Origin: Octopus vulgaris
Lineage: Eukaryota
DNA: 64,000 nt
Reading direction: 5' to 3'
Assembly (NCBI GenBank): GCA_951406725.2
Contig: OX597824.1
Location: 26,536,001-26,600,000, forward strand
The translations under genes were made by a program, and so were the position numbers. Numbering within the stretch: position 1 is the stretch's first letter; each line of letters opens with the position of its first letter. The notes below the pieces were generated by a model that ran no database searches, had not been told where the DNA came from, and saw only the letters and a program-made list of their open reading frames with translations. Shown piece by piece: positions 16,864-23,755 of the stretch.

Positions 16864-18405
16864 ACTTTCTCAATTCCTGAGAGTTATACTAATACATCTG
16901 TTTGTTTTGTACACCACCTGTCTTCGTCTTTGGGTTTTTTTGTGAACTCTCTCCCTCACTTATATATATATATATTGAATCTATATTATATATATATATT
17001 ATAATATTATATTATATATATCTTATATATATATATAAATCTTGCACAACAAATATTTAAACGTATATATATATATATATATATATATATATATATATAT
17101 ATATATATATATATATCATATATATATATATATATATATATATATATATATATATATATATATATATATAGTTACATACATACATACATACATACATACA
17201 TACATACATACATACATACATACATATGCCGCCTCTTGAAATTTATAGAAAATCAAAAGACGAAGACAGGTGTTTGAACAACAAGCAAGTGTAATAGTTT
17301 GAGCTCGGGAAAATGAAAACGTACTTTACGTTTCGAGACTATGTCTATCAGGATTACAGCACATCCTTTGTCTGCTTCTTTAATTGTCAGTTCTTTGTCG
17401 TTTTGTAGTTCAATTAAATTTTTAGATTTTTTCCATTCTAGACTGTTATGGTTTGAATTAAGTTTTCGCTTATGGGAAAATTTGGATATGGTTGCAGAAG
17501 TCTTCTAATCTCTTCATTCAACTACTCATTTATGTGGAAGATATATATATATATATATATATATATATATATATATATATATATCCTCGTACATACATAC
17601 ATACATACATACATACATAGTACATACATACATACATACATACATACATACATACATACATACATACATCCGATATTTCATTTTAGTTAGATCTTCGTGG
17701 GGTTGGGGTAAATTTCAGTTCTTTAGCTAGTATACTGACTTTTGTTTCGAAACTATGTCTATCAGGACTACAGCACATCCTTTGTCTGCTTTATTAATTG
17801 TCAGTTTCCCTTTGTCGTTTTATAGTTCAATTAAATTTTTAGATTTTTTCCAATCTAGTCTAAAAAATGTTTACTGTAATTTGGCCGGTAGAAATTATCA
17901 ATGTTATTAATTATATTAGGATTTCTGGAAGGCTGGTTTTGCTGTCTGGGTAAAATAGTTGGAAGTACGTGGTTTGGGTTTGTTTGTTAGTATAACTTGT
18001 CAAGGTTCTTAATTATTTTTGAGATGATGAGAGTTTGGTTTTGCTGTCTGGGTAAATAGGTTGGAATTCCGTAGGTCGAATTTCTTCAATGAGGGGTAGA
18101 AGTCCCTTGGATGTTTCTAGTTGCTGGGTGAGAAATAATTACTCCTAACCCTAGGTTGGTTTCTTCTAGAATCCCTTATAAGTGAGTTGCTCTTATTCCT
18201 AGGTTGAGGGCGGTTTACTTCCAAGTGAGAAGTTAGTTTTGTGTGTTTGTGTTCTTTTAGATGTTTATGTATAAACGTTTTGCATTCATAAACTACATAA
18301 GGTTCCTTTTAAAAGTAGCTTCATAAGCTAGTAATTGTACAAATAAACGGCTATCTATATTGATTAATGCTGCTTTAAAAGTTGTTACAATATATTAAAA
18401 AAAAA

Positions 18406-18615
18406 GAGATGCAGCACGGATTTTTGTCAGTGAACAGGTCGCGGATTTTAGCGACGAAAATATTTTGACAAATTAAACTTAAATGTTGAAGTGAATCGAA
18501 CGGCTTTTGTGTGTTTCTTAAATGGCTAACAAACACCTTCCACGCTGCAATTGTTTTCGTTTCAGCACACGATCTCAGCTCAAATTACTTGCTATGCGAG
18601 TACATCTCCGTAATA
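18406..18615 (+). mobile_element. ~205-bp HHR element with TSD ATTAAAAAAAAA
   Basis: Same ends as the 19445 and 22075 copies; TSD at 18394-18405 / 18616-18627. Confidence 0.85.
18423..18472 (+). ncRNA. Type I HHR with G3-C8 core variant
   Basis: UUUGUCA GUGAACA G GUCGC ggauuuua GCGAC GAAAA UA UUU UGACAAA: 7-bp stem I, 5-bp stem II, palindromic stem III. Confidence 0.75.
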
Positions 18616-19444
18616 ATTAAAAAAAAATTGTGACCAAAAAAAAACAAAACAGTTCAGGAATTAATTATATTTTGAAGTTTTAGCTCAACTAAGGAATTTG
18701 TGGATAGATTGATCAAATGTAAGAAGTTAAGAGTACGTATGTGTATGATTTTTCGACATTATATACAAACTTAAACCTTAAATGTGTGGAAGATGGTATT
18801 TTTAGAATATTAGATATTTTAAATAAAGGATATAAATGTATATCTTTAAAGGATGGTAAAGGTTTCTTGTCTAATTGTAGATATAAGGGATATACTAATA
18901 TAGTAATAGAAAAATGAAAGAAATGGTTAGTTTTATTATTAATAATTCATTTGTAATGTTAGCAGGTAGGGTGTTTGAGCAGGTTAAGGGAATTCCCAAG
19001 GGTGGCAATTTTAGCTCCCTATTGGGGGACCTTTATTGTTCTTCATGGGAGTTGCTTTTTCTTAAAGACATATGTGCTAGGAAAAAGATGATTTGCTTAA
19101 ACAACTTGATGGATGCTGCAGAAACATAGATGATATATCTACACCTAATTATGGTTTCTTTGAATTTTTAATCAGAAAATTATACCCTAGAGAGCTGAGA
19201 GCCACCAGAAATGGTAACAATATAAGAAATATTAATTATTTAGATGTCAATCTAGGAATTAAGGATAATAATGAAATATGTACTGACATATATAATAAAA
19301 CAGAAGACATGGCGTCGATGCCATGGTTCAGTAGTAAAATTCCTTCTTTTATTGGTTATGGTGTTTTTGCGGGGCAAATTGTTAGATATAGTAAGTACTA
19401 TTATTAATAATGCTAATAAAATTTGGGAAAAGAATAAATAAACT

Positions 19445-19647
19445 TACGGAGATGTACTTGCATAGCAAGTGACCTGATCCGAGATCGTGTGCTTGAACGA
19501 AAACAATTGCAACGTGGAAGGTGTTTATATTCCATTTAAGAAACACACAAAAATCGTTAGATTCACTTCAACATTTAAATTTAATTTGTCAAAATATTTT
19601 CGTCGCTTTGAGACCGCGACCTGTTCACTGACAAAACTTCGTGCTGC
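19445..19647 (-). mobile_element. ~205-bp G3-C8 HHR element (HHR 19585-19635), TSD ATAAATAAACT
   Basis: TSD at 19434-19444 / 19648-19658; loop II differs while the stems are kept. Confidence 0.85.
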
Positions 19648-21227: not shown

Positions 21228-21426
21228 TTTATTTTATAGAAGGAGCTTCTACAGGACTAGAACTGTTTCATTCAAAAGAAATCATCAGGAAGCTTCCTGA
21301 TGATTTCTTTTGAATGAAACAGGTCTAGTCCTGTAGAAGCTCCTTCTATAAAATAAATTAATTTACTCTGCTATGTATTGAGTACCTTATTTACTGTGGT
21401 TAACCCCGACTCAACCCGGGACCTAC
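21228..21426 (+). mobile_element. Palindromic HHR element (65-bp arms 21228-21292 / 21293-21357)
   Basis: Spacer-less palindrome centred on GGAAG|CTTCC, flanked by (TA)n. Confidence 0.85.
21291..21341 (+). ncRNA. Type I hammerhead ribozyme
   Basis: AGCUUC CUGAUGA U UUC UUUU GAA U GAAAC AGG ucuagu CCU GUA GAAGCU: perfect 6-bp stem I, 5-bp stem III, U.U at 10.1/11.1. Confidence 0.8.
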
Positions 21427-22074
21427 ATATATATATATATATATATATATATATATATATATATATATATATATATATATATATATATATATATATATAT
21501 ATATATATATATATATATATATATTTATATATATATATATATATATATATATATATATATATATGTAGGTGCAGGAGTGGGCTGTGTAGTAAGAAGCTTG
21601 CTTCTCAACCACATGGTTTCGGGTTCATTCCCACTACGTGATACCTTGGGCAAATTTCTTTTACTTTAAGTAACAAGTAGCCATTTAGAATTAAATCCAT
21701 TGGGAGTTGTCAGCTATGTTCCAGTTGATTGTGATAAATTAATGTCAGACAACCTCCCAGACTCTTAATTTAATGGGGCCATATATCTAGCTTTATCTGC
21801 ATAAAAAATATGTCTCAGAGCTACTAGTGAGAGAATGACTGATGGGGAAAGGGTGATAACTAGAAGGAAGGAAAGATATGGGAGGCTACTACTTATCTAA
21901 ATTATCAAATAAAGGGGGAATATAGCGAAAACAAAAGAGGTAAAAATAAGCTCTAAGGATGGGAATTAGAATTGGGGGACACGAGATGTAGTAATTCGTA
22001 ACTTGGCAAATATATTATATTAAATTTAGAAAAGAATTATAGTTCAATATATTTAGGAAAAGAATAGAAACTAA

Positions 22075-22279
22075 TTACGGAGATGTACTCGCATAGCAAG
22101 TAATTTGATCTGAGATCGTGTGCTGAAACGAAAACAATTGCAGCGTGGAAGGTGTTTATAAGCCATTTAAGAAACACACAAAAGCCGTTCGATTCACTTC
22201 AACATTTAAGTTTAATTTGTCAAAATATTTTCGTCGCTAAAATCCGCGACCTGTTCACTGACAAAGTCCGTGCTGCATC
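22075..22279 (-). mobile_element. ~205-bp G3-C8 HHR element (HHR 22216-22265), TSD TAGAAACTAA
   Basis: TSD at 22065-22074 / 22280-22289. Confidence 0.85.
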
Positions 22280-23755
22280 TAGAAACTAAACTTAAAATCT
22301 AATAATGGGGTACTTTAATATTATGAGAAATTTCGTAAAGTCTTCCTTAAGCATTCTGTTAAGGTGGTTATGATAAAGCCATTCCACAATGAATTTATAA
22401 ATGAATTAAATTATCATCTGAGTAGGAGTACATAGTACATAATAAATCAAAACAAGGATTATTATTCTCATTACAGGTGGATAAATATAAGACATCGAAA
22501 ATAAGGAATCGAGTGTTCTCACTGTCATGTTCTTGTTACCACTTTCATACCACATATGTACATACCACATATATATGTAGGTATGTACATATATGTATGT
22601 ATATATGCATATATTTATATATTATTTATATTATTATATGATCGAACGCTACGCATCCTTTTCCAAGTAAGTTTTATCTTAATAATTACGATGCGTACTC
22701 TTCTATCTTTACTATCTCTTCCCTGTCTATCTCGCTCCCTCTCTTGTTCGTCATCCTTTCTGATTTTCTCTCCCACCCTTCCCTATTCTTCTCCTCTCCT
22801 CTTCACCGTTCCTTTTCTCTCGCTCCTCCTCCTCGACTCTCTCGTCGCTGACACGTAACGAAAGAATCTACCTTCCTAGCCACAACCTTCGTAAAGACTA
22901 AACGTGCTTATACTGTCTCCTTCATAAGCTCATCTTCATAAGCGTTCATAATAATTCTTCTGTCCTCTTGGCTTAACAGCCCTCACCGTTTGTTTTTACT
23001 GTTTTGTTTTCTGTTTTTTACTGGTTTTACTTTTTCCTTGTTTTTACTATTTTGTTCTCATTGTCCTGTGTTTGTTACCATTTTCACCCCCCCCGCAAAA
23101 AATCCCGAATTCCTTTCAATTTACTTTGCGGGAAGGATTGTTCAAACGAAGTCGCGTCTTGTCCTTGCCTTCGGAAACGTGGAGTAGATGAAACAGGGAC
23201 AACTGAAGAAGGGAAATATTCTTTATGTTGTATATCTCGCTTCTCTGTTTGTTTGTTTTTCGTTGTTCGAAAAAAAGTTCGTTTCTATGTTTTTGTTTTT
23301 AAGTTTTCGTTTCTCATTGTGTTCAACGTTTTTTTGATGTCCTGTAGCCATATGTATGTATACATATATATGTATGTATGTATATATATACATATATATA
23401 TATATATATATATATATATATATATATATATATATATATATATATATATATATATATATATATATATATATATATATATATATATATATATATATACATA
23501 TGTATCTGAAAAATGTTGCAAATATACACACAAGTAGGAAAACGTATAACGTATACTGGCAGACGGAAGATAGACACAGAAGTTCTTCAGTCAGTGCATT
23601 CAATATACGATTTTTTCTTGTTTGTGTATTTACAATACATTTTTTCAATTATTAAATAACGGGACGTAACGCGGCCTGGCTTTTGTTAAGTGTAAGGTAT
23701 ATATATATATATATATATATATATATATATATATATATATATATATATACCTACG

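What the first reader, a model, noticed from the sequence alone, without database searches (positions are those of the whole stretch)
18394..22289. ~205-bp mobile element with TSDs carrying a G3-C8 hammerhead variant and UUU cleavage site
Seen: three copies (18406+, 19445-, 22075-) with the same ends and individual 10-12-bp TSDs, plus a diverged copy at 46141. The core is GUGAACA (C3G/G8C swap) with an extra G after A9, 7-bp stem I, 5-bp stem II whose loop varies while the stem is kept, and palindromic AAUAUU stem III. It has no tRNA head, TIR or ORF. Inference: a SINE-like element defined by a ribozyme rather than a Pol III promoter; a standard CUGANGA search would miss it.
Basis: partly seen in the sequence, partly recalled or inferred. 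Interest (0 to 1): 0.83.

Follow-up and report, generated by a model that had tools for sequence, protein, structure and literature searches.

The report
Penelope end-piece with swapped-core hammerhead
The 205-base repeat is not a new kind of SINE but the end-piece of a full-length Penelope-like jumping gene, present in thousands of copies; its predicted self-cutting RNA has two paired core letters swapped, and it likely cuts only rarely, because most copies were made from uncut RNA.

Summary
The repeat, its TSDs and the G3-C8 hammerhead motif are real. The SINE reading is wrong. The 207-nt unit is the pseudo-LTR plus tail of an autonomous Penelope-like element (RT + GIY-YIG). It lies about 1 kb behind the ORF in 13 of 13 long copies picked by protein alone, and its last 92 nt are the ORF's first 30 codons. 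Copies show the Penelope signature: an inverted 5' arm, two 3' ends (nt ~148 and ~207) and (TA)n targets. G3-C8 is the family norm (6,996 of 7,867 core matches). Related elements carry C3-G8 or U3-A8 at the same place, so the pair looks selected. Short copies mostly begin at nt 1, and 22 of 29 carry an extra G, which suggests copying of a capped RNA from an internal priming site to its cap, straight through the uncut ribozyme. Only 56 copies start at the cut site (7,720 read through it), a weak excess over neighbouring positions. Cleavage is untested. The scan noted this family twice before on other pieces of this genome. New variant of a known kind.

The parts
18407..18613 (+). Copy 1: pseudo-LTR (nt 1-~148) plus tail (nt ~149-207) of a Penelope-like element
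18406..18406 (+). Extra G before nt 1, not in the TSD nor in the element's upstream template; likely cap-derived (inferred)
18394..18405 (.). Left TSD of copy 1 (12 bp, A-rich)
18616..18627 (.). Right TSD of copy 1
18423..18472 (+). Type I hammerhead motif: stem I 18423-29/18466-72, G3 at 18430, C8 at 18435, extra G 18437, stem II 18438-42/18451-55, GAAA 18456-59, palindromic stem III 18459-64, U17 at 18465 (predicted cut after it)
18522..18613 (+). First 30 codons of the element's RT/GIY-YIG ORF, cut off at the tail end
19444..19649 (-). Copy 2 (older subfamily, different loop II; G3 at 19628), inserted into a decayed unrelated RT reading frame; TSD 19434-19444 / 19648-19658
22075..22280 (-). 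Copy 3 (G3 at 22258); TSD 22065-22074 / 22280-22289
46141..46360 (+). Diverged copy 4 with inverted 5' stub (46141-46154) and damaged stems, between (TATC)n and (TA)n

Best explanation
The unit is the hammerhead-bearing pseudo-LTR and tail of an autonomous Penelope-like retroelement, and the short copies are likely reverse transcripts of the first 207 nt of its capped, mostly uncut mRNA. Shown: the unit sits behind and in front of a ~1,070-codon RT + GIY-YIG ORF, holds that ORF's first 30 codons, ends at nt ~207 or ~148, and usually begins at nt 1. Inferred: RNA polymerase II starts at nt 1 (TATA-like run at -30, initiator-like context); the element's protein binds the 5' part of its own ORF RNA, nicks AT-rich DNA and primes cDNA inside the RNA at nt ~207 and ~148; the first strand runs to the cap and often adds one base read as G; a second priming gives the inverted arm; repair leaves a TSD of about 7-14 bp. 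Inferred: the G3-C8/U17 hammerhead is a selected but slow, dimer- or protein-assisted ribozyme that cuts after nt 59 in a small share of RNAs.
For: Upstream of the unit, 4 of 30 loci share at least 1.5 kb ending in a GIY-YIG ORF (PF01541, E 1.5e-5). 13 of 13 long copies chosen only by protein match carry the unit downstream, 945-1,090 nt after the stop in 22 of 22 stop-codon matches. L109 holds a 1,025-codon open frame with RT motifs, a CxxxCxxC linker and GIY-YIG. At 19 genomic sites nt 207 reads on into the ORF; L126 reads 200 codons from the unit's ATG in frame with the RT; L115 is unit-ORF-unit, 4.26 kb apart. 50 of 91 loci have an inverted 5' arm, 45 of the 50 arms stop at nt 142-155, 67 of 91 main copies stop at 205-209, 48 of 91 are followed by (TA)n. 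The same layout (12 codons in the pLTR, 22 with the tail, TATA plus initiator) is described for Adineta Pen2a (PMC3846280 passages); two internal RT start sites that define the tail, and uncut RNA as main template, were shown in vitro for Anolis PAc (PMC11167929). Extra G in 22 of 29 copies ending at nt 1, with the next base varied (p 5e-12 against 17% G). TATA-like run at -30 in 20 of 30 long loci. The 3-8 pair is Watson-Crick in 11 of 11 aligned motifs as C-G 5, G-C 3, U-A 3, with two-sided changes in all stems. 56 copies start at nt 60 against 27 and 24 at the neighbouring positions.
Against: No cleavage, cap or start site was measured; the RNA runs available were contigs of guessed type and cannot show ends. 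Within the family the core is no better kept than flanks (20 of 590 against 95 of 3,009, p 0.8). The covariation set is small, the three G-C rows are one family, and four motifs (L213, L220, L221, window 44093) came from scans that required a 3-8 pair, so part is circular. The nt-60 excess falls to 37 against 23 and 21 (p 0.014) once starts explained by stem I microhomology are removed. In some copies the extra G can also be read as the last base of the TSD or of the inverted arm. The sequence before nt 1 also reads as a branch point plus 3' splice site, and the TATA-like run lies in microsatellite DNA.
Confidence: 0.85

Rival explanations
1. Same element, but the hammerhead is a dead relic: the fold is kept for another job (protein binding, translation control, RT pausing) or drifted, and G3-C8 does not cut.
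For: 7,720 copies read through the site; only 3 of 99 sampled 5' ends fall at nt 55-63; the sister family has C at position 9 and a non-palindromic stem III yet is young and spreading; PAc hammerhead mutants still inserted in vitro; C3G/G8C only partly rescues.
Against: Keeping a Watson-Crick 3-8 pair through three identities matters only for the catalytic fold; small excess of starts at nt 60.
Confidence: 0.3
2. The sharp 5' end marks a 3' splice site: short copies come from a spliced or intron-processed RNA rather than from a start site at nt 1.
For: 1,049 genomic matches of a branch-point-like and pyrimidine-rich stretch ending in AG at nt 1-2; Drosophila Penelope has an intron ending near its hammerhead.
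Against: No fixed upstream exon is seen: one G, then a varied base (C 10, A 9, T 8, G 2); a few copies start at -3 with G before them; TATA-like run at -30.
Confidence: 0.15
3. One reading: an independent non-autonomous SINE or retrozyme that transcribes and amplifies itself, delimited by its ribozyme.
For: Short copies outnumber long ones about 7 to 1 (6,996 core matches against 1,049 with upstream sequence); pLTR-derived non-autonomous retrozymes are described (bioRxiv 10.64898/2026.07.22.740005, part 1 of 5). Some short copies inside (TA)n could be re-transcribed.
Against: Ends are not set by the ribozyme; no tandem arrays in 91 loci; short and long copies are 95-98% identical and share loop II variants; the 3' part is coding sequence of the autonomous element.
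Confidence: 0.05

Closest known systems
Endonuclease-bearing Penelope-like elements of the Neptune/Nematis type (Craig 2021, PMC8557442, passages; Arkhipova 2013, PMC3846280, passages)
   Same: Single RT + C-terminal GIY-YIG ORF, Cys-rich linker, pLTR holding the first codons, optional tail, inverted 5' pLTR, (TA)n bias, short TSD.
   Different: Tail is ~59 nt rather than 30-40; short copies pile up at one 5' position with an extra G, which I did not find described (search). Neptune versus Nematis was not resolved.
[quoted passage not shown]
   Same: Type I, extra base between 9 and 10.1, G10.1-C11.1, short palindromic stem III, U17 common, predicted dimer, low activity; U3-A8 variant already reported in Schistosoma.
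   Different: G3-C8 as the consensus of a whole family; not mentioned in the parts read.
Anolis PAc Poseidon element in vitro (Frangieh 2024, PMC11167929, parts 1-2 of 4)
   Same: Two internal RT start sites within the ORF define the tail; uncut RNA is the main template; C3G/G8C double mutant partly active with protein.
   Different: There G3-C8 is engineered; here it is natural, and the hammerhead lies wholly before the ATG.
Animal non-LTR retrozymes (Li 2026 bioRxiv 10.64898/2026.07.22.740005, part 1 of 5)
   Same: pLTR-related, type I hammerhead, short dispersed monomers.
   Different: No tandem multimers here, ends not at the cut site, and an autonomous parent with the same sequence exists.

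Membership tests
EN+ Penelope-like element | One ORF with RT and C-terminal GIY-YIG | tested here: met
   L109 1,025-codon frame; PF01541 at residues 882-972 of P0001; RT motifs read from the translation; closest relative P0002 hits RVT_1 weakly
EN+ Penelope-like element | pLTR flanks the ORF and includes its first codons; optional tail | tested here: met
EN+ Penelope-like element | Inverted 5'-truncated copy lacking the tail | tested here: met
   50 of 91 loci; 45 of 50 arms end at nt 142-155
EN+ Penelope-like element | Hammerhead motif in the pLTR | tested here: met
Neptune or Nematis clade | CX2-5CxxC linker before the endonuclease | tested here: met
   CxxxCxxC in P0001; definition
Neptune or Nematis clade | Placement in an RT tree with named reference elements | not tested
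   no named reference set was at hand
Hammerhead ribozyme, type I | Three stems around the core with a 3-8 Watson-Crick pair, G5, A6, A9, G12-A13-A14, A15.1-U16.1, H17 | tested here: met
   stem III is only 2 bp as a monomer
Hammerhead ribozyme, type I | Self-cleavage after position 17 | not testable with these tools
   indirect only: 56 starts at nt 60 against 27 and 24 beside it, 7,720 read-through
SINE | tRNA/5S/7SL-derived Pol III head | tested here: not met
   no tRNA; no such Rfam hit at copy 1
SINE | Independent non-coding unit, not a plain fragment of an autonomous element | tested here: not met
Non-LTR retrozyme | Head-to-tail multimers whose unit is set by ribozyme cleavage | tested here: not met
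   no direct tandem of the unit in 91 loci; 5' ends at nt 1, not nt 60
Non-LTR retrozyme | Circular RNA intermediate | tested here: inconclusive
   only contigs of guessed RNA runs; no end-to-start joint listed

The most novel reading that the evidence does not exclude
A natural, active G3-C8 hammerhead is fixed in a thriving Penelope family, in a clade where the 3-8 pair flips among C-G, U-A and G-C; it is tuned slow so that the capped RNA survives for translation and copying. The thousands of short copies are then a genomic 5'-end record of the mRNA: cap-derived G at nt 1, internal RT starts at nt 148 and 207, and about 1% of cDNAs ending at the cut site, giving in vivo support for the internal-priming model and a direct readout of how often a Penelope hammerhead cuts.
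Probability: 0.4. Interest if true: 0.6.

Novelty: new variant of a known kind. Interest (0 to 1): 0.42.

Why it matters
The job of hammerheads in Penelope-like elements is an open question. This family offers a natural core variant that I found in print only as an engineered rescue mutant (searches; two key papers were not held), an intact-looking parent to pair it with, and thousands of insertions whose ends report the RNA's start, the priming sites and the cut site. It also shows that descriptor searches on CUGANGA undercount these ribozymes, and that some short 'unclassified SINEs' in such genomes are Penelope end-pieces. As a mobile element it is ordinary.

Tried and rejected
SINE, MITE and retrozyme readings rejected (membership tests). 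Whole-window Rfam scan was swamped by microsatellite miRNA hits; the 150 rows shown held no hammerhead, 219 were not shown. Repeat finder swamped by microsatellites. Exact motif scan of metagenome contigs: 0 matches. Sequencing runs: no RNA holder listed on record; four guessed-RNA contig sets cover the unit but cannot show starts, ends or strand. Conservation of core against flanks within the family: no difference (31 of its 59 rows came from loci first picked on the core, which should have favoured the core). The RT remnant around copy 2 is not the parent (no similarity to P0001). My strict scanner missed the sister family's motif because it has C at position 9; it was found by reading the flank. 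The contig look-up for related proteins was closed, so hammerheads beside the closest non-cephalopod relatives (P0003-P0030) were seen only for the 17 loci, of which 9 showed a motif. Lunse 2017 and Przybilski 2007 were not held; either could already report or test G3-C8. File 1 of the Cervera 2014 supplement was not searchable, and figures are not held. Look-up of earlier findings by sequence gave nothing.
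Full report
Observation. All three fold as a type I hammerhead with G3 and C8, an extra G after A9, a palindromic 2-bp stem III and U17. Rfam does not call it and there is no tRNA. The genome G000 (2.8 Gb, 227 contigs; octopus-like by the source label of a protein that matches it) holds 6,996 exact matches of an 18-mer across the core and 7,867 when positions 3, 7 and 8 are left free, so G3-C8 is the family norm. These counts include inverted arms and miss diverged copies.

The unit is part of a larger element. Two loci shared sequence upstream of nt 1. 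That motif has 1,049 genomic matches, and 4 of the 30 loci fetched share at least 1.5 kb further upstream, ending in a GIY-YIG reading frame. A protein search gave 8,461 candidates, 150 scored. I fetched 13 of these for their long open frames; 13 of 13 carry the unit downstream, and the stop-to-nt-1 distance is 945-1,090 nt in 22 of 22 stop matches across 16 loci. L109 has a 1,025-codon frame with RT motifs, a CxxxCxxC linker and GIY-YIG. At 19 sites nt 207 continues into new sequence; translation from the unit's ATG (window 18522) gives the ORF's N-terminus, in frame with the RT in L126. L115 shows unit, ORF, unit at 4.26 kb.

[quoted passage not shown] Of 91 loci taken in order along contig C1, 50 have an inverted arm at the 5' side; 45 of these arms stop at nt 142-155; 67 main copies stop at 205-209 and 12 at 144-149; 48 are followed by (TA)n; among the 43 others 25 show a 7-14 bp duplication (some low-complexity) and 18 none. 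Eight of the 91 share one junction and are probably carried in a larger repeat, so they are not independent. Craig 2021 (passages) and Arkhipova 2013 (passages) describe the same pLTR, tail and inversion; the linker points to the Neptune or Nematis type, which I did not separate.

Why so many copies are 207 nt. Frangieh 2024 (parts 1-2 of 4) showed in vitro that a Penelope-like RT starts at two sites inside the first part of its ORF RNA, that these define the tail, and that uncut RNA is the main template. An mRNA that starts in the pLTR would then give a cDNA from the tail end to the cap. The data fit: in a sample anchored on a 3' 22-mer, 44 of 99 rows begin at nt -5..+8 and 3 at nt 55-63 (one duplicate row, and some of the 13 rows scored as longer only run on through (TA)n). 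Of 29 copies ending exactly at nt 1, 22 have a G before it where the template has C or T, and the base before that varies (p 5e-12). A TATA-like run lies at -30 in 20 of 30 long loci. Reading the G as a copied cap rests on my knowledge of other retroelements and is inferred; in some copies it can also belong to the TSD or the inverted arm. The rival is a 3' splice site at nt 1-2, which the sequence also fits, but no fixed upstream exon appears.

Is the hammerhead selected? Within the family the core is no better conserved than flanks (20 of 590 against 95 of 3,009), as expected for neutrally decaying copies; the columns that separate subfamilies fall in loop II and outside the stems. Between families the picture differs. 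A young sister family in the same genome (54% amino-acid identity) has a motif at the same place with C3-G8, C at 9, two-sided changes in stems I, II and III, and U17. Of 17 metagenome relatives, 9 showed a motif near the ORF end: U3-A8 in L210 and L213, C3-G8 in L211, L214-L217, L220, L221. In an alignment of 11 motifs the 3-8 pair is Watson-Crick in 11 of 11 (C-G 5, G-C 3, U-A 3), 11 of 13 pairs show two-sided changes, and 0 of 500 shuffles reach the covariation score. Caveats: three near-identical loci (L215-L217) were left out, the G-C rows are one family, four rows came from scans that demanded the pair, and window 44093 has no shown link to this clade.

Does it cut? Genome-wide, 56 copies begin at nt 60, the predicted 3' product, against 27 at nt 61 and 24 at nt 59, while 7,720 read through. 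Removing starts explained by stem I microhomology (counted by hand from the listings) leaves 37, 23 and 21 (p 0.014). This is a hint of rare cutting, about 1% of templates, and strong evidence that cutting is not needed for insertion. RNA runs could not test ends.

Prior art. Hammerheads in pLTRs, with the extra base, palindromic stem III and a U3-A8 variant, are in Cervera and de la Pena 2014 (parts 1-2 of 4); U17 is frequent in its supplementary alignment (passages). Perreault 2011 reports natural U3-A8 (section 8). G3-C8 appears as an engineered, partly active variant. Searches found no natural G3-C8 family, but Lunse 2017 and Przybilski 2007 were not held and most subscription papers are not searched. 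A 2026 octopus repeat annotation does not mention ribozymes in its main text. The scan noted this family twice before on other pieces of the genome; those notes agree, and one prompted the cut-site count.

Verdict. An ordinary mobile element (new member of the Penelope-like class) with a real, probably selected core variant of its hammerhead, and an insertion record that makes the ribozyme's role testable. New variant of a known kind; interest 0.42.

Noticed in passing
window 18700-19790: Decayed RT reading frame with Penelope-like motifs that seems to end after the thumb without an endonuclease (Naiad-like by eye); copy 2 is inserted in it. No Pfam hit and no similarity to P0001.
   Followed up: partly
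window 43510-43815 / 43993-44298: 306-bp inverted repeat of another family with a U3-A8 hammerhead-like motif (43715 -, 44093 +) and a palindromic stem III, ending in (TA)n.
   Followed up: partly
window 26557-26986 / 27242-27671: 430-bp perfect inverted repeat with partial tandem, Penelope-like insertion layout, next to (TA)n; no motif found by my hammerhead scan.
   Followed up: no
window 50435-51207: Broken C-terminal part of another Penelope-like ORF with a Cys linker and weak GIY-YIG hit (E 0.08).
   Followed up: partly
window 20960-21340 and 61239: Two short inverted-repeat pieces with canonical CUGANGA-type cores (61239 found by scan; 21250-21345 seen by eye).
   Followed up: no
L201-L209 (e.g. 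G000:C17:6331000-6338500): Very young sister Penelope family with 1,312-codon open frames at 99% identity; its hammerhead has C at position 9 and a non-palindromic stem III. L210 also has C9.
   Followed up: partly
L211:4966-5016: Relative's hammerhead has the reversed U15.1-A16.1 pair.
   Followed up: no
L042, L044, L161, L162, L165, L166, L169, L187: Eight loci on C1 share one identical inverted junction and flanks: one insertion multiplied inside a larger repeat.
   Followed up: no
L051: About 340 nt of zinc-finger-like coding sequence lies between the inverted and direct arms, possibly a captured host RNA piece.
   Followed up: no
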